Below are positions 8,980-44,465 of a stretch of DNA of 64,000 nucleotides, in pieces (the first letter of the stretch is position 1; each line of letters opens with the position of its first letter). Source of the DNA: the human T2T-CHM13v2.0 reference genome, Homo sapiens; assembly GCF_009914755.1 (NCBI RefSeq), contig NC_060929.1; one strand, 5' to 3'. The position numbers and the translations under genes are program-made. The notes under the pieces were generated by a model. The model ran no database searches, was not told the DNA's origin, and saw nothing but the letters and a program-made list of their open reading frames with translations.

Positions 8980-9938
8980 TTTTTTAAAAAAAAATATTTT
9001 AGGTTCAGGGGTTCATATATAGGATTGTTACATAGGTAAATGTGTGTTGTAAGGCATAGGATTGTTACACAGGTAAATGTGTGTTGTAAGGTATAGGATT
9101 GTTACACAGGTAAATGTGTGTTGTAAGGTATAGGATTGTTACATAGGTAAATGTGTGTTGTAAGGTATAGGATTGTTACATAGGTAAATGTGTGTTGTAA
9201 GGCATAGGATTGTTACATAGGTAAATGTGTGTTGTAATGTATAGGATTGTTACATAGGTAAATGTGTGTTGTAAGGGTTTGTTGAACAGATTATTTCATC
9301 ACCCAGGTGTAAGCCTAGTACCCAATATTTTTCCCGATCCTCTTCTTCCTTCCATCCTCCACCCTCTGATATGCCCCAGTGTGTGTTGTTGCCCTCTATG
9401 AGTCCATGTGTTCTTATCATTTAGCTTGCACTTATAAATGAGAACATGTGGTATTTGGTTTTCTGTTCCTGTGTTAATTTGCTAAGGATAATTGCCTCCA
9501 GTTCCATCCACGTCCCATCCATGAATGAGGACATGATCTCATTCTTTTTTATGGCTCCGTAGTAGTTCTATGGTGTATATGTACCACGTTTTCTTTATCC
9601 AGCCTACCACTGATGGGCATTTAGGTGGATTCCATGTCTTTGCTATTGTGAATAGTTCTGCAAAGAACACACACGTGCATGTATCTTTATAATAGAACAA
9701 TTTATATTCCTTTGGCTCTATACTCAGTAATGGGATTGCTGAGTTGAATGGTATTTCTGTCTTTAGGTCTTTGAGGAATCGCCATACTGTCTTCTACGAT
9801 GGTTGAAGTAATTTACACTCCCATCAAAGGTGTATAAGCGTTCTTTTTTCTCCACAACCTAGCCAGCATCTGTTATTTTTTGACTTTTTAATAATAGCCA
9901 TTCTGACTGGTGTGAGATGATATCTTACTGTGGTTTTG
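8980..9938 (-). mobile_element. 5'-truncated old L1PA (L1PA13-16-like) 3' end
   Basis: Reverse L1 3'UTR and ORF2 end. 16-bp TSD at 8964-8979 and 9939-9954. Confidence 0.88.
9019..9277. repeat. 37-bp minisatellite, 7 copies, inside the L1 3'UTR
   Basis: Unit ATAGGATTGTTACA(T/C)AGGTAAATGTGTGTTGTAAGG(T/C), starting at 9019, 9056, 9093, 9130, 9167, 9204 and 9241. Confidence 0.97.
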
Positions 9939-36939: not shown

Positions 36940-37650
36940 ATGGCAGGCGCCCCTCCCCCAGCCTCGCTGCCGCCTTGCAGTTTGATCTCAGACTGCTGTG
37001 CTAACAATGAGCGAGGCTCTGTGGGTGTGGGACCCTCTGAGCCAGGCACAGGATACAATCTCCTGGTGTGCCGTTTGCTAAGACTGTTGGAAAAGTGCAG
37101 TATTAGGGTGGGAGTGACCCGATTTTCCAGGTGCCCTCTTTCACCTCTTTCCTTGGCTAACAAAGGGAATTTTCTGACCCCTTGCACTTCCTGGGTGAGG
37201 CGATGCCTTGCCCTGCTTCGGCTCACACTTGGTGCGCTGCACCCACTCTCCTGTACCCACTGTCTGACTAGCCCCAGTGAGATGAACACGGTAACTCAGT
37301 TGGAAATGCAGAAATCATTTGTCTTTTGCGTCGCTCATGTTGGGAGCTGTAGACTGGAGCTGTTCCTATTCAGCCATCTTGGCTCCACCCCTTTCTTTCT
37401 TTCTTTCTTTCTCTTTCTTTCTTTTTTTTCTTTCTTTTTTCTCTCTCTCTTTCTTTCTTTCTTCTTTCTTTCCTTTCTTTTTTCTTCCTTTCTTTCTTTC
37501 CTTCCCTTCCTTCCATCCTTCTTTCCTTCTTCCTTCCTTCCTTCTCTCTCTCTTTCTTCTTCCTTCCTTCCTTCCTCCCTCCCTCCCCCCCCTCCTTCCT
37601 TCCTTTCTTTCTTTTCTTTCTTTCTTTCTTTTTCTTTCTTTCTTTCTTTT

Positions 37651-37697
<47 letters not shown>

Positions 37698-37779
37698 ACT
37701 CTTCTGTCTGTCTCTGTCTCTGCCTTTCTTTCCTTCCTTCCTTTCTTCATTCCCAGTTTTTATCCCAAAAGAAGATTAG
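36940..37779 (+). CDS. L1 antisense ORF0 homolog, read through to 279 codons (expression unknown)
   Basis: N-terminus MAGAPPPASLPPCSLISDCC…GVGPSEPG…RVGVTRFSRC matches recalled ORF0. No stop until 37779. Confidence 0.45.
37392..37748. repeat. About 350-bp (TTTC/TTCC)n polypyrimidine tract
   Basis: Almost purine-free on the plus strand; abuts the L1 5' end. Confidence 0.95.
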
Positions 37780-38221
37780 GCCAAAAAAGTTGCAAAATAC
37801 ACTGATGTATCTAATGTCACAAATGTTAGTTATACTTTGAAGATTTTTGACTAATAGTCATGTGTTCTAATAATAGTAATAGCCACTATTACTATTTATT
37901 GCTTTTCCAGTCGGTTACAGTATAAATGATCTCAGTAAATCAACCTAACAGTTCTAGGAAAGAGATATTATTTTCCCTGAGCATATTTTAGGGCTTAAGG
38001 GTTTAGTAACTTGCCCATTGTTAAATAGCCATGCCATCCCCTTTTCTTGGGCCATTTTGCTGCTCTTAGCATAATGGTAGGTAATGGGCATGAGGTGGGG
38101 GTGGAAGAGCAAAGAGTGGGGGCCAAATATCTGTCATAGGACAGATATTTGACTGTCCTGTGAATTACATGTGTATATAAAAATTGTTTCATTAAGGAAA
38201 AAAACTGAACTAGCCTTTGAT

Positions 38222-39639: not shown

Positions 39640-40712
39640 AGAAAGTAACATAATTTATTTATAAATGTGTGAAATGTTTATTAATAGTAACAATAAAGTT
39701 AACATGATACATACTGATGTTTAAGCATTTATTAATTCTCATTTTGCATTTTTTTATTTTGATATATTTTTCCTCTTTTCTTTCTTTCTTTCCTTTTTTT
39801 AAAGAGTTCTCAGACCTTTCAAAAGGACTCAGACCCTAAGCACCATGTTCTCTAATGAATAAGATTGTACAACCAATGTTAATCAGCTTCTCAGGTAGGT
39901 AACCTTACCTTATACAACTCATAAGGCTAGGTATTAAGTTGGACTATATAAAATTGATGTTTTTTCTTGTAAAATATGATCAAATAGAAGGAATTTCACA
40001 TAATTTAAACTAATAGTTTATGTTCATTCTATTCTGCTACTGAACACTATCTATATTATTCCTTTCATCTAACTGGATTTTTGTACCCATTAACCAACTC
40101 CTCTTTATCTCCCTTCAGTCCTCTGGTAAACTAGTAGTTTTTGGTTACAAATATAATATGTTTTCCCCCTTGGACACATGGATTTAAATCGTAGAGCTAA
40201 GACTAGTAAAAGCAACTGCTGTGCACGTGGCTGGTGCTCAGCATTTGCTGAATGAATGTATGCACACCTAAGCAAATAACCAAACTAAACATAACAATGT
40301 AAATAAGAGTTAAATTGCATGGTACAGACGTGTGGTCATGGACCTGGCAGAATATGTTAACCATACAAAGCCGTTTGAAAATTACTTTGAAGTTTTTTAA
40401 ACCAACATTCTGTTTTTAATTTAATTTTGTTTTTTTTTAGAAGAGATTGGCATTTTCCGTGGGATAAAGCAGTTCTGGCGTATTTCACTGTTGACTTCTC
40501 ATTAGGGAACAAAAAATGGAAACATCACAGGAGTTTAAGGAAGAAAAATTAAAAAAAAAATTATAGACCTAAGAGAGAAGAGACTTCAGAGGTTGGTAGG
40601 ATTTTCATGAAGCATGTTGCTATTTACTTGGCAGCTAAGATTATCTTCAGGGGTAGGATCTGAAGGTACTAGTGTTTTCTTCTTCCACTGGAGCTCAGAG
40701 AAGCCAACAGCT
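39640..40712 (-). other. C9: C9 3'UTR (distal end approximate)
   Basis: Follows the stop codon. Candidate polyA signals on the minus strand: ATTAAA at 40425-40420 and 40420-40415; AATAAA at 39733-39728, 39682-39677, 39659-39654 and 39510-39505. Confidence 0.75.
39654..39733 (-). terminator. C9: Cluster of AATAAA signals, candidate distal C9 polyadenylation region
   Basis: Three TTTATT hexamers on the plus strand within 80 nt, about 1 kb downstream of the C9 stop. Confidence 0.55.
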
Positions 40713-40724
40713 CTATTTTTCATT
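40612..40724 (-). pseudogene. Vestigial C-terminal TSP1 domain coding sequence spanning the C9 stop and proximal 3'UTR
   Basis: In frame: AAT GAA AAA TAG AGC TGT TGG CTT CTC TGA GCT CCA = N-E-K-*-S-C-W-L-L-*-A-P, versus TSP1 D-G-x-W-S-C-W-S-S-W-S-x-C. After a +1 shift: D-P-T-P-E-D-N-L-S-C-Q, versus N-P-A-P-Q-N-G-G-A-S-C-P. Confidence 0.7.
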
Positions 40725-40747
40725 GGGGAACTCTAGGGCTGGCAATC
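40713..40747 (-). CDS. C9: Complement C9 terminal exon, coding part (G)LPALEFPNEK*
   Basis: Acceptor TTTTCTCTAG|GA. 35 coding nt ending in TAG at 40715-40713. Matches the recalled human C9 C-terminus. Confidence 0.96.
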
Positions 40748-42699
40748 CTAGAGAAAACAAATAAGTATCAAATCTTAATCATCAATAGGATTTTACTTTG
40801 GGTCCATCCACCCATCCGCTTTTTCACCTTCTTATCCTCTTGCACCACGTTGTGCCATACTGTCTAGGTACTGGGAATAGAATGTGGTGTAAGGTACAAG
40901 GCACATTTTCATACCAGAAAGGGCTATTTGTCTTGTATACAGAGAGTCAATGTGATTAGTGCTGGAAAAACAGAGGGAAAGTTCTCAGGCAGCATAGATA
41001 GAGAACTGATTCCTGGAGAAATTGGAGAAGGTTTCATCAAAGATATGCTAATTGGACTGGGTTCAAAATAGAGGTTTTTAACCCTGGCTAAAGATTAGAA
41101 TAACCAGTAGATTTTTTAAAAATTCAAAAAACAAAAAACCCATGCCCAGGCAGGATCTACCATGGCTGCTTTTGTTTAATTGGCTTAGGATAGACATCTG
41201 TTTTGTTTTGTTTCTTTTTTTTTTTTTCCTTTAAGGAAGTGAGCCAGATGAATCCAATGACCAACCTGGTTGAGAGCCATTGGTCTAGGAGTAGAAACGC
41301 ACACAAGGAATAAGGGAGAAGGAGGTTCGGTTAGTTGAGGGAGAGAAAGTTGGAAGCATTTCAAGCTAAGTAAATGGTATAGAAAAAGAAAGATGATGTG
41401 TTACGGTTTTCAATCTCATCATGGGTGTAAGCTAGTGTAAATTGGAAACTAGAACATTCTATGTCAACATGGATGCTTGGAAGATCTACCTTGAGGGAAA
41501 AATTCAACAAGAAAATGTCTAATGTCTCAGCAAGAAGCTGTGGGCCATCCTGGGTCAGGTTTGAAAGGTCAACCAAACAATGCCTAGTGATCAAAGATAA
41601 TTTTATATTGGGGAAGGGACCTTGATATTCATTATCTATGAAACACAACATATGGAACCCGAACCAAGAACTTTACATAAAAATCTAGTGCAAGACTGAT
41701 GAAAATGATAGGACCTCCTAAGAAACAAACTAACCCTAAGAATATGTTCATTATCCAGGGAAGACGGGTTTCCACAGGAAATAATTCCCACCAAAAACTA
41801 AGCCTGTAATAAAAAATCACTAAGTACTGAAGAAAGCATAATATGCCATGAGAATGAATTGGTAGACTTAGCAGAGAATTGCACTGCAGAAACAATATAT
41901 ACTGGAACAATTTGAAAGAATTCCGTGAAGATATATTTAACATGTTGAAAGCTATAAAGGTAGGAAAATAATCCAGTAGACTAGACAACAGAAAAAACTA
42001 GACAAAAGAAAATTGAAAAAGAACCAAATCAAAATTTTAGAAAAATACTTTTAAAATAATCTCAATAGGTCAGCAAATGGATCGACTATACAAAGTTGAA
42101 TAAAATAATTGGAAAATTAAAAGCTAGAACTAAAGAAATCACAGAGAAATCAGCAGAATATTCTACATAGAGAGAAATAGGTAGAAAATAGACGTTCCAA
42201 GTACCAAGTAGTATACATTTTTGGAGAGTGAGAGTTTTTTTTGGAACGCAAAGCACTAGATTGAGACTTTAGACCGATGAGAGACAGAGTTAGCATACAT
42301 TTATAAATCAATCATTCTAAAATTTAAATTAAATTCTAACTTACATATTTTGTCACCACATGATTGAGTTTCTAAGCCATTTGCTGAGAAGTGTAAAAAA
42401 TTCATAAAATATTAAAAATTTATATTGTAAGAGATGAAAATATGGTTGAATGATAAACGAGGCTGTGAACTTTGGCTACATAATTGTTTTAGAATTTTGT
42501 TTCAGGAAACTGTATTTGTTCAAACAATGATTGCCATAGAAAGTTAATCTTAATAGCTAATCTTGTGATATTAACACTTGGACTAAGATCTCACTAATCT
42601 ATTAGGAGTCTGAATAATTCTACCAGAATGAAATACTAAGCATAAACTCTTAGGATTAGAAACATGACTAAAGTCATGTTTACTTGTAGGAAGTAAAAT

Positions 42700-43497
42700 A
42701 GTTTAATTGAGTCCTATTTGTCTATTTTTGTTTTTATTGCATTTGCTTTTGAGGTTTTAGTTATAAATTATTTGTCTAGGCCAATGTCCAGGAGAGTTTT
42801 TCCTAGATTTTCCTCTAGGATTTTTATAGTTTCAGATCTTACATGTAAGTCTTTAATCTATCTCAAGTTAATTTTTGTATATGGTAAGAGAATAGAGATG
42901 ATTTCTCAAAAAATTAAAAATAGGACTACCACTCAACAGTCCCACTACTGGGTATCTACCGAGAGGAAAATAATCTTTATATGAAAAAGATGCCTGCACA
43001 CATATGTTTACTGCAGCACATATTTTGATGTGCAATAGCACATATTTACAATACATATTTACAATAGCAAAGTCATGGAATCAACTTTCATGTCCATCAA
43101 TGGATGATTGGATAAAGAAAATGTGGTACATATGTACCATAGAATATTATTCAACCATGAAAGAGAATGAAATCATGTCTTTTGGAGCAACATGGTTGGA
43201 GCTGGAGGTCATTATCCTAAGTGAAATAACCCAGAAATAGAAAATCAAATACCACATGTTCTCGCTTATAAGTGGGAGCTGAACAATGGGTATGTATGGA
43301 CATAAAGAAGGAAATAATAGACAGTGGGGACTCCAAAAATGGCGAGGATGGGAGGGGGATGAGGGTTGAAAAATTACCTGTTGGGTACAATGTTCACTAT
43401 TTGGGTGATGCGTACACCAGAGGCCCAAAGCTTATCATTATGCAATATATCCTTGTAACAAACCTTCACATGTACCCTTTAAATTCATAATAAAAAT
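42700..43497. mobile_element. L1PB-like element with 5' inversion (minus 42700-42893, plus 42898-43497)
   Basis: An antisense ORF2 piece directly abuts a sense ORF2 end, 3'UTR and poly-A. Short TSD-like GTAAAATA on both flanks. Confidence 0.75.
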
Positions 43498-44236
43498 ATT
43501 TTTAATGTAAAATAATGTTTCCTTATGATTAACTTAAAAATACAATACAGAATCTCAGCTTTCAAAAACACAAATACAGTTAAAAATGCAAAATAAAAAT
43601 CTAGTGAATATCATTTATATAAAATTTAAAAACATACAAAACAATATCACATATTTTTCATTGGTACATACATATTTAGTACAAGCACAAAAATATGAAC
43701 TGGAAAGATACATACCAACTTAATGAAAGTGACTGTATCTGAGTAGTAGAAGAGAGAAAAGGCAATAGAATTTTTTTGGGGGGCGGGGATGTGGTACAAA
43801 GTAATTAATTGGATGTATTATTGTTGCTTCTTAAAAAAGGGTTTTAAAGTATATATGTCTACGTCTATACACATAAACACATATATATGCAAAGTGTATA
43901 TGATATATATGTATTAACATTCATCAATTCTATATAGTGAGTACCTGATGTTTGTTGTATTTCTGTAAACCTTCTATAAGAATATTTTTATAAAGAGTAA
44001 TACAATAATTATAATTTATTTATTTATAATTCTATCTTAATATATACAAGTAGAATATGTCAGAATGACACATAAAGGCTGATTTACCCATTTTCACTAT
44101 TCACTCAATCTTTATCTTCTGTTTATATAAATAATCTAGAGATTTAGTACAAATTAATTCAAGAGCTAGTTTTCAAATTAGATAACCCCAAAGTGCATAT
44201 TTTTGTCTTTAATCACATCAAATAAATTGTCCTCAC

Positions 44237-44465
44237 CTTCAGAAATTTTTTGTTTACTGATTTCACAGGCAATTCCCTCAAATTTGAATGGGCAGGCACA
44301 CAAACACTTTCCATCCATTAGAATCACTGTACCTCCATTTTGGCATGTGTGGCATTTTCTTACACTAAATTCATTGATATAGTCTTCAATGGCTCTTTCC
44401 AAGTTTTGTTTCTTTAGGTGTGCATTTTTCATTTTCACTGGAACCAGATTATATATAGGAGACAG
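44237..44465 (-). CDS. C9: Complement C9 exon 10 (end of MACPF plus EGF-like domain)
   Basis: Acceptor TTCCTTTCAG|CTG, donor GAAG|GTGAGG, 229 nt. Translates [76 protein letters not shown]. Overlaps ORF 44178..44438. Confidence 0.98.

What the first reader, a model, noticed from the sequence alone, without database searches (positions are those of the whole stretch)
40612..40724. The C9 stop codon is probably a mutated Trp codon, and the 3'UTR holds a fossil C-terminal TSP1 domain
Seen: reading on in frame from ...FPNEK gives AAT GAA AAA TAG AGC TGT TGG CTT CTC TGA GCT CCA = N-E-K-*-S-C-W-L-L-*-A-P. Both stops (TAG 40715-40713, TGA 40697-40695) are one G>A change from TGG, and with TGG 40706-40704 they sit at exact W-x-x-W-x-x-W spacing with S-C before the middle W. 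Further on, T-S-T-F (TTC, one change from TGC) and a 1-nt shift give D-P-T-P-E-D-N-L-S-C-Q, and a last TGC lies at 40614-40612. Established: C6, C7, C8A, C8B and teleost C9 carry a TSP1 domain after the EGF domain (C8A-type DGSWSCWSSWS.C...REC.NPAPQNGGASC), and human C9 lacks it. Inference: the domain was lost by a nonsense mutation inside a still-spliced exon, turning coding sequence into UTR. The short LPALEFPNEK tail would be the old linker. I cannot tell whether this has been published.
Basis: partly seen in the sequence, partly recalled or inferred. Interest (0 to 1): 0.85.

Follow-up and report, generated by a model that had tools for sequence, protein, structure and literature searches.

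The report
Decayed TSP1 domain in C9 3'UTR
The stretch just after the stop codon of the human complement C9 gene looks like the worn-down remains of a protein domain that platypus, bird, reptile, frog and fish C9 still make, so marsupial and placental mammals probably lost it by cutting translation short, not by deleting the DNA.

Summary
On the minus strand the C9 frame reads ...LPALEFPNEK-TAG-AGC-TGT-TGG-CTT-CTC-TGA. That is *-S-C-W-x-x-*, and both stops are one G>A change from TGG.

Database C9 proteins from platypus, echidna, birds, geckos, amphibians, lungfish, coelacanth and ray-finned fishes carry a C-terminal TSP1 domain beginning [DN]G-x-W-S-C-W. All placentals seen and 6 of 6 marsupials lack it.

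I wrote a codon-decay profile aligner for the test. It places 40724-40665 in frame on columns 1-21 of the amniote C9 TSP1 profile at 22.6 bits.
- 0 of 1000 dinucleotide shuffles reach that score.
- 0 of 1000 column-permuted profiles reach it.
- 4 of 1358 real windows reach it.
- Anchored at the stop codon, every equal or better site lies beside one (GAAA)n microsatellite.

Similarity falls with distance, from amniote C9 to amphibian, then fish and paralogues, then an N-terminal TSP1 control. The human C6, C7, C8A and C8B TSP1 exons all follow a phase-1 intron, as C9 exon 11 does.

Plain HMMER with X at the stops is not significant, and the second half adds no score. A 2022 preprint and my tail table suggest that a stop in exon 10 came first.

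The relic is probably real. That the TAG was the causal lesion is doubtful.

The parts
44237..44465 (-). C9 exon 10: end of the MACPF domain plus the EGF domain. It ends ...AAA ATT TCT GAA G|gt (phase 1). The last full codon GAA (Glu) is where many placental C9 models have their stop.
   Evidence: 31 of 118 models stop exactly 8 residues after the last EGF Cys and 35 stop earlier.
40748..44236 (-). Intron 10, phase 1. It corresponds in position and phase to the intron before the C-terminal TSP1 exon of C6, C7, C8A and C8B.
   Evidence: Searches give the donor gtgagg and acceptor ctctag. One search shows that all four paralogue exons begin with 2 bases that complete a split codon, 6-7 codons before the first Trp.
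40716..40747 (-). Coding start of exon 11: (G)LPALEFPNEK, probably the old EGF-TSP1 linker. N-E-K aligns with the [DN]-G-x that precedes the first Trp.
   Evidence: By-eye comparison with the lungfish linker EKISQPAVINGGW and frog DGKW.
40713..40715 (-). TAG, the human C9 stop codon. It aligns with the first Trp (W1) column of the TSP1 profile and is one G>A change from TGG.
   Evidence: Anchored test.
40704..40712 (-). AGC TGT TGG = S-C-W. This matches the invariant S-C-W of W-S-C-W in tetrapod C9 and gives the strongest columns of the alignment (1.8, 3.6 and 5.1 bits).
40695..40697 (-). TGA in frame, aligned with the third Trp (W3) column. It is probably TGG in laurasiatherians.
   Evidence: alpaca P0031, Artibeus P0091 and polar bear P0064 have Gly where human +1 frame has Glu. 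This is an inference, because third codon positions are unknown.
40665..40694 (-). GCT CCA GTG GAA GAA GAA AAC ACT AGT ACC = A P V E E E N T S T. It aligns with S P (C deleted) V N G E R T R T of the amniote profile.
   Evidence: traceback and (13 of 60 nucleotide differences over the 20 codons).
40625..40664 (-). Candidate second half: TTC (Cys column), a 1-nt shift, then DPTPEDNLSCQV against C-N-N-P-A-P-x-x-G-G-x-P-C-Q-G. It is colinear but carries no statistical weight.
   Evidence: the path score stays at 18-20 bits and the gaps cancel the matches.
40612..40614 (-). It lies in another frame, about 4 codons short of the expected spacing, and is not supported.
   Evidence: and my own count against the profile.

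Best explanation
Exon 11 of human C9 is the descendant of the exon that encodes the C-terminal thrombospondin type-1 (TSP1) domain in non-therian C9. The DNA from about 40724 to 40665, and possibly on to about 40625, is the neutrally decayed start of that domain. It has no present function as protein.

The domain was switched off by premature termination, not by deletion. The splice acceptor and the polyadenylation end of the exon stayed in use, and the former coding sequence became proximal 3'UTR. This happened after the split from monotremes.

The human stop TAG sits on the former first Trp codon and the in-frame TGA on the third. The first lesion was probably not this TAG. It was more likely a stop at the last codon of exon 10, which most placentals still have. 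In the line to monkeys and apes that codon became GAA. Translation now crosses the old phase-1 junction, reads ten codons of old linker and ends at the dead Trp codon.

Shown: the sequence, the intron phases, the taxonomic distribution of the domain in protein models, and the alignment statistics. Inferred: orthology of the exon, the order of the lesions, and neutrality.
For: 1. Distribution.
- 11 of 118 C9 models carry a C-terminal TSP1 domain beginning [DN]G-x-W-[SGN]-C-W. They are the 2 monotremes, 1 bird and 8 frogs.
- All 15 further non-therian models carry it too (birds, geckos, salamanders, Ascaphus, coelacanth, ray-finned fishes and two unnamed). So does the lungfish model P0128.
- Every placental model lacks it, and 6 of 6 marsupials lack it.

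2. Gene structure.
- C9 intron 10 is phase 1.
- The TSP1 exons of human C7, C8A, C8B and C6 also start with two bases of a split codon, 6-7 codons before W1. C9 has 11 codons before the TAG.
- Preprint 10.1101/2022.04.21.489004, section 13 (read), reports 11 coding exons in fishes, amphibians, reptiles, birds and platypus.

3. Alignment with my codon-decay profile aligner, which allows frameshifts.
- Amniote profile: 23.4, 22.6 and 20.4 bits at decay 0.2, 0.3 and 0.4. At each setting 0 of 1000 dinucleotide shuffles and 0 of 1000 column permutations reach the score.
- Tetrapod profile: 0 of 1000 shuffles and 1 of 1000 permutations.
- The result is stable over four gap and frameshift settings.
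- Anchored with W1 on the TAG, 21 of 127,400 positions score as high. With the Ser column on the codon after the stop, 28 do. Both counts include the site itself, and all the others lie at 37249-37335 or 37784-37800, beside a (GAAA)n run.
- The aligned codons show 13 of 60 base differences. The minimum over 18,270 placements was 18.

4. Gradient. Mean single-sequence scores were:
- sauropsid C9 18.4
- monotreme C9 17.9
- amphibian C9 15.7
- paralogues 14.9
- lungfish and coelacanth C9 14.8
- ray-finned fish C9 14.1
- N-terminal TSP1 control 11.3

5. Order of lesions.
- 31 of 118 models stop 8 residues after the last EGF Cys and 35 stop earlier.
- In models that read on, the residue at that codon includes E, K and Q. 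Birds show E, K and Q there too. This fits an NAA codon one step from TAA.
- The preprint states that the 11th coding exon was regained independently in several orders.
Against: - Standard tools do not see it. Pfam gives no TSP_1 hit at E<=10 for any of the three frames with X at the stops.
- An HMM built from the 14 tetrapod sequences gives 2.8 bits, rank 53 of 4260 six-frame pieces.
- The whole-genome six-frame search with platypus C9 listed 72 matches and not this stretch, though it ran with a stricter first look.
- The positive statistics come from a scoring scheme I wrote for this purpose.
- The anchor at the stop codon was suggested by the data.
- A few real windows reach the unanchored score: 5 of 1358 and 4 of 1358.
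- Only 2 of the 6 Cys columns hold a Cys codon.
- The second half adds nothing.
- Three GAA codons in a row contribute about 4.5 bits and are low-complexity sequence.
- No DNA of another species could be read, so orthology, the W3 state and the order of lesions rest on protein models. The alpaca match is BLASTP E=0.30 and Artibeus gave none.
- The linker before the TAG is 4-5 codons longer than in the paralogue exons.
Confidence: 0.62

Rival explanations
1. The relic is real and the TAG at 40715-40713 is the original TGG>TAG nonsense mutation that removed the domain. On this view the stops in exon 10 of other mammals are later, recurrent and tolerated truncations of a useless tail.
For: - The relic statistics are the same as for the best explanation.
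- A stop right after E-K is shared by primates, a lemur model and several bats, so it is old within Boreoeutheria.
- Once the tail is useless, upstream stops can accumulate and are hard to reverse. Stops occur at several different positions, with tails of 4, 5, 6, 7 and 8 residues.
- The exon-10 codon is E, K or Q in birds. A C>T change from CAA to TAA could recur.
Against: - A stop exactly 8 residues after the EGF Cys occurs in afrotherians, rodents, lagomorphs, a tree shrew, lemurs, horse, rhinoceros and pangolin. That would need many identical events.
- Lineages that read on use different residues there (E, K, Q), as expected from separate losses of one ancestral stop.
- All 6 marsupials also stop inside exon 10.
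- The preprint concludes that the exon was regained.
Confidence: 0.2
2. Chance resemblance. The TSP1 coding part was deleted or has decayed beyond recognition, and the *-S-C-W-x-x-* pattern is a coincidence in ordinary 3'UTR sequence, which may be conserved for regulatory reasons.
For: - HMMER and Pfam with X at the stops find nothing significant.
- The second half carries no signal.
- Four of six Cys columns are not Cys.
- The pattern was found by eye after the fact.
- 4-5 of 1358 real windows score as high without an anchor.
Against: - 0 of 1000 shuffles and 0 of 1000 column permutations reach the score with the amniote profile at three decay settings.
- No non-repeat site in 127,400 positions matches the anchored score.
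- 0 of 18,270 placements come within 4 differences of the observed 13 of 60.
- The score falls with phylogenetic distance and reaches background for the N-terminal TSP1 control.
- The match lies in the exon, frame and position where gene structure predicts it.
Confidence: 0.15

Closest known systems
C-terminal TSP1 domain of non-therian complement C9 (platypus P0105, echidna P0107, birds, geckos, amphibians, lungfish, fishes)
   Same: - It occupies the same place in the gene: the last exon, after the EGF exon.
- The opening is the same: [DN]-G-x-W-S-C-W-x-x-W-x-P, then E and T-x-T. The human stretch reads N-E-K-*-S-C-W-L-L-*-A-P-V-E-E-E-N-T-S-T.
- These sequences give the highest similarity scores of all groups tested.
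   Different: - The human copy is not translated beyond the TAG.
- Two of the three Trp codons are stops.
- One Cys column is deleted and others are mutated.
- At least one frameshift is needed to follow the domain further.
C-terminal TSP1 exons of human C6, C7, C8A and C8B
   Same: Each follows a phase-1 intron after the EGF exon. Each begins 6-7 codons before W-[SNG]-C-W.
   Different: - They are paralogues, intact and translated.
- Their similarity to the C9 relic is lower than that of amniote C9 (14.9 against 18 bits).
- C9 has 11 codons between the acceptor and the W1 position.
Exon-10 stop and 'regained' 11th coding exon of mammalian C9 (bioRxiv 10.1101/2022.04.21.489004, section 13, read)
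   Same: It describes the same exon and the same variation in where mammalian C9 ends.
   Different: In the passages and the section I read, the preprint does not connect exon 11 with the TSP1 domain. It also does not describe a remnant of that domain in the 3'UTR.
Unitary pseudogenes and decayed coding exons retained in transcripts
   Same: Former coding sequence decays at a neutral rate while still being transcribed. It is recognisable only by codon-aware comparison with intact orthologues.
   Different: Here only one domain of an otherwise essential, intact gene is affected, and the relic serves as 3'UTR.

Membership tests
TSP1 repeat (Pfam PF00090), as a decayed relic | W-x-x-W-x-x-W tryptophan ladder | tested here: inconclusive
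   The spacing is exact, but only the middle codon is TGG. The outer two are TAG and TGA, each one transition from TGG.
TSP1 repeat (Pfam PF00090), as a decayed relic | Six conserved cysteines | tested here: not met
   Only TGT 40709-40707 and, after a frameshift, TGC 40633-40631 fall on Cys columns. Column 13 is deleted, column 24 is TTC and the last is absent. This is expected for a dead domain, but the feature is not met.
TSP1 repeat (Pfam PF00090), as a decayed relic | Significant match to the family HMM | tested here: not met
   Pfam gives no hit at E<=10 in the three frames with X at the stops. My own C9-TSP1 HMM gives 2.8 bits, rank 53 of 4260 pieces.
TSP1 repeat (Pfam PF00090), as a decayed relic | Codon-level similarity above sequence and profile controls | tested here: met
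   0 of 1000 shuffles and 0 of 1000 column permutations at three decay settings. 13 of 60 differences against a minimum of 18 in 18,270 placements.
C-terminal TSP1 exon of the MAC family (C6, C7, C8A, C8B, non-therian C9) | Last or next exon after the EGF exon, entered through a phase-1 intron a few codons before W1 | tested here: met
   for C9. for the four human paralogues.
C-terminal TSP1 exon of the MAC family (C6, C7, C8A, C8B, non-therian C9) | W-[SNG]-C-W signature with a Cys inside the Trp ladder | tested here: met
   All 53 family members collected were selected by W-x-C-W after an EGF motif. Human has TAG-AGC-TGT-TGG at the aligned place.
C-terminal TSP1 exon of the MAC family (C6, C7, C8A, C8B, non-therian C9) | Closest to C9 orthologues rather than paralogues | tested here: met
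   amniote C9 17.9-18.4 bits, paralogues 14.9, N-terminal TSP1 control 11.3.
C-terminal TSP1 exon of the MAC family (C6, C7, C8A, C8B, non-therian C9) | Orthologous DNA alignment to the TSP1 exon of monotreme or sauropsid C9 | not testable with these tools
   No vertebrate genome other than the window's own could be read. Only protein models were available.

The most novel reading that the evidence does not exclude
The last ten residues of human C9 (LPALEFPNEK) are an ancient linker that spent tens of millions of years as untranslated RNA after a stop arose in exon 10 of early therians or placentals. It was re-translated in the ancestor of monkeys and apes when that stop reverted. Translation now ends at the corpse of the first tryptophan codon of a domain lost after the monotreme split. 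On this reading the relic dates the remodelling of the pore-forming subunit of the membrane attack complex to early therian mammals and shows how it happened. It also gives a natural experiment for asking what removal of the C-terminal TSP1 did to C9 polymerisation: monotreme and sauropsid C9 with the domain against therian C9 without it.
Probability: 0.45. Interest if true: 0.6.

Novelty: new member of a known kind. Interest (0 to 1): 0.5.

Why it matters
C9 is the polymerising subunit of the complement membrane attack complex. It is the only human MAC protein without a C-terminal TSP1 domain.

Fish-immunology papers treat the second TSP1 of C9 as a fish feature (PMC4813206, passages read). 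The protein models seen here show it in amphibians, geckos, birds and monotremes as well. That places the loss in early therian mammals.

A recognisable relic in the 3'UTR would show that the domain went by truncation of translation inside a still-spliced exon. It would give a dated, mechanistic example of domain loss in an essential immune gene. It would also show that coding signal can survive this long in the slowly evolving human lineage.

The finding has no medical consequence. Its value is for the evolution of complement and as a test case for codon-aware detection of dead exons.

Tried and rejected
1. Pfam scan of the three frames with X at the stops found no TSP_1 match.

2. HMMER with my own 14-sequence C9-TSP1 HMM over all six frames of the window, stops as X, gave 2.8 bits, rank 53 of 4260. 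This is not significant, because masking the stops removes two of the three Trp signals.

3. A first window-wide scan used one global base composition. GC-rich repeats swamped it, with scores up to 47 against 21 for the relic. I replaced it with local-composition scoring.

4. I tried extending the alignment through the frameshift to C-Q-V. There was no net gain, so I dropped the second half as evidence.

5. A homologue search with the platypus C-terminal region found only 3 proteins. The representative-library search and a search with the lungfish C-terminus supplied the sequences instead.

6. BLASTP of the human +1 frame gave E=0.30 against alpaca and no relevant match against Artibeus. The laurasiatherian inference about the TGA site therefore stays a by-eye argument.

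7. The whole-genome six-frame search with platypus C9 found the paralogue exons but did not list the relic.

9. Seven literature searches found no paper describing a TSP1 remnant in the C9 3'UTR. The Fugu C9 gene paper that I recall is not in the library.

Full report
**The observation**

The minus strand of 40400-40900 shows the acceptor ...ttctctag|GATTGCC at 40747. Exon 10 (44465-44237) translates to ...[39 protein letters not shown] and is 76 codons plus one base long. Its donor is GAA G|gtgagg, so intron 10 is phase 1.

From 40745 the C9 frame reads LPALEFPNEK, TAG, S C W L L, TGA, A P V E E E N T S T F. The +1 frame reads ...RAVGFSELQWKKKTLVPSDPTPEDNLSCQV.

**Who has the domain**

I searched with the exon-10 translation for longer proteins. 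This returned 120 vertebrate C9 models from 128 candidates. I sorted their C-terminal tails.
- 118 of the 120 had a recognisable EGF motif.
- 11 carry a C-terminal TSP1: platypus, echidna, one bird and eight frogs.
- 31 stop exactly 8 residues after the last EGF Cys.
- 35 stop earlier.
- 41 read further without a TSP1.

A second search with the lungfish C-terminus gave 15 more non-therian C9 models. These cover birds, two geckos, salamanders, Ascaphus, coelacanth, ray-finned fishes and two unnamed entries. All carry the domain. It also gave four more marsupials. All six marsupials end 6 residues after the EGF Cys.

The domain is therefore not a fish speciality, as PMC4813206 states (passages read). 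It was lost after the monotreme split.

**Gene structure**

The window's own assembly could be searched. The C-terminal TSP1 exons of human C7, C8A, C8B and C6 each begin with two bases that complete a split codon. Each starts 6-7 codons before W-[SNG]-C-W.

C9 exon 11 begins the same way (GA|TTG...), 11 codons before the TAG. Preprint 10.1101/2022.04.21.489004 (section 13 read) reports 11 coding exons for C9 in fishes, amphibians, reptiles, birds and platypus. Human exon 11 is therefore, by position, the TSP1 exon.

**Is the resemblance more than chance?**

Standard tools say no when the stops are masked.
- Pfam found nothing in the three frames.
- An HMM built from 14 tetrapod C9 TSP1 sequences gave 2.8 bits, rank 53 of 4260 six-frame pieces of the window.

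I therefore wrote a profile-to-DNA aligner. Each profile column is turned into a codon distribution and decayed by a per-site substitution probability (0.2, 0.3 or 0.4, transitions favoured). It is scored against the local base composition. Codon gaps and frameshifts are allowed. Under this scheme TAG and TGA score as decayed TGG, in the controls as well.

Tetrapod profile (14 sequences), 188 nt from 40747:
- Score: 22.8, 21.7 and 19.2 bits at the three decay settings.
- Dinucleotide shuffles: 0 of 1000 reach it at any setting; at decay 0.3 their mean is 10.6 and sd 1.8.
- Real 188-nt windows: 5 of 1358 reach it.
- Column-permuted profiles: 1 of 1000 reaches it.

Amniote profile (10 sequences: 2 monotremes, 5 birds, 2 geckos, 1 unnamed):
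- Score: 23.4, 22.6 and 20.4 bits.
- Shuffles and column permutations: 0 of 1000 for both at each setting.
- Real windows: 4 of 1358 reach it.

The alignment runs from 40724 to 40665. It pairs N E K * S C W L L * A P - V E E E N T S T with D G G W S C W S A W S P C V N G E R T R T.

Anchored tests used the amniote profile.
- With the W1 column on the TAG, 21 of 127,400 positions in the window score as high.
- With the Ser column on the codon after the stop, 28 do.
- Both counts include the site itself. All other positions lie at 37249-37335 or 37784-37800, on either side of a (GAAA)n run.
- With the tetrapod profile the other loci are also all inside annotated repeats.

The result holds for four gap and frameshift settings.

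A simpler count gives the same answer. The 20 aligned codons differ at 13 of 60 bases from the nearest codon of any residue seen in the amniote column. The mean over 18,270 placements in the window was 29.4 and the minimum 18.

Two cautions apply. The scoring scheme is my own, and the anchor and the one-codon gap were suggested by the data.

**Specificity**

Mean single-sequence scores against the UTR fall with phylogenetic distance.

| Group | Mean score (bits) |
|---|---|
| Sauropsid C9 | 18.4 |
| Monotreme C9 | 17.9 |
| Amphibian C9 | 15.7 |
| C6/C7/C8-like paralogues | 14.9 |
| Lungfish and coelacanth C9 | 14.8 |
| Ray-finned fish C9 | 14.1 |
| N-terminal TSP1 of the same C9 proteins (control) | 11.3 |

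The control sits at about the shuffle mean. This is what orthology predicts.

**What is not supported**

I followed the alignment through TTC, a one-base shift and DPTPEDNLSCQV. The path score stayed at 18-20 bits, because the gaps cancel the matches. The second half is compatible but adds no evidence. The last TGC is in another frame and too close.

**Which lesion came first**

The evidence points elsewhere.
- Models from afrotherians, rodents, lagomorphs, a tree shrew, lemurs, horse, rhinoceros and pangolin stop at the last full codon of exon 10.
- Lineages that read on have E (monkeys, apes, tarsier, alpaca), K (fox) or Q (hyena, a shrew) at that codon.
- Birds also show E, K or Q there. 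It is an NAA codon one step from TAA.
- The preprint states that many mammals have a stop in exon 10. [quoted passage not shown]

On that reading exon 11 was already UTR when TGG decayed to TAG. The human reading frame was re-extended later and now ends at the dead Trp codon.

I cannot exclude the reverse order. A stop right after E-K is shared by primates, a lemur model and several bats, so it is old.

**The TGA site**

Alpaca (P0031), Artibeus (P0091) and polar bear (P0064) models read this stretch in the human +1 frame...EKRAVGFPGII......EKRVVGFSGIT... and ...NKAFDFLGIKEK. Each has Gly where human has Glu. That puts GG where human has GA in the TGA codon.

This fits an ancestral TGG. It rests on a by-eye alignment with unknown third positions (BLASTP E=0.30 for alpaca and none for Artibeus).

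**Literature**

Seven searches and passages from four papers turned up no description of a TSP1 remnant in the C9 3'UTR. The closest is the preprint's account of the exon-10 stop.

**Verdict**

| Claim | Probability |
|---|---|
| The relic is real | about 0.8 |
| The TAG occupies the old W1 codon | about 0.7 |
| The TAG was the primary lesion | about 0.2 |

This is a new, tidy example of a known kind of event, of moderate interest. It can be settled with a multi-species DNA alignment, which these tools do not offer.

Noticed in passing
window 44236-44170 (-), intron 10 start: Reading through the exon-10 donor gives [13 protein letters not shown]. This matches the tail of the gelada model P0015 ([20 protein letters not shown]) and resembles the ends of beaver P0042 and pangolin P0123. 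Those models are retained-intron readings, not real alternative C-termini.
   Followed up: partly
window 37640-37750: A long (GAAA)n/(GGAA)n microsatellite lies here. Its flanks gave the only scores above the relic in the anchored tests, because purine-rich codons fit the E/K/R/G columns of the profile.
   Followed up: partly
window 9000-9290 (-): A minisatellite of about 45 bp units (...acaacacacatttacctatgtaacaatcctata...) lies here. It gave the top plain-HMMER score (11.6 bits) in the six-frame control.
   Followed up: no
proteins P0105-P0121, P0272-P0286: The literature read here calls the second TSP1 of C9 a distinctive fish feature (PMC4813206). Database models show it in lungfish, coelacanth, salamanders, frogs, geckos, birds and both monotremes.
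   Followed up: yes
proteins P0122 (Anolis sagrei 'C9-like') and P0111 (Eudromia 'C9-like'): These two sauropsid models end shortly after the EGF domain without a TSP1. They may be truncated models, or the second squamate copy that the preprint mentions may have lost the domain independently.
   Followed up: no
window 40724-40695 (-): Against frog and lungfish D-G-K-W or N-G-G-W, the human N-E-K-* and the TGA can each be derived by G>A transitions on the sense strand (GAT>AAT, GGA>GAA, TGG>TAG, TGG>TGA). I did not test whether this bias is more than chance.
   Followed up: no
L005, L015, L020, L018 (own genome): In all four human paralogues the C-terminal TSP1 exon starts with a split codon. 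It is Gly (G|GA) in C7 and C8A, as in C9, and x|AT in C8B and C6. The junction is conserved in phase and nearly in sequence across the family.
   Followed up: partly
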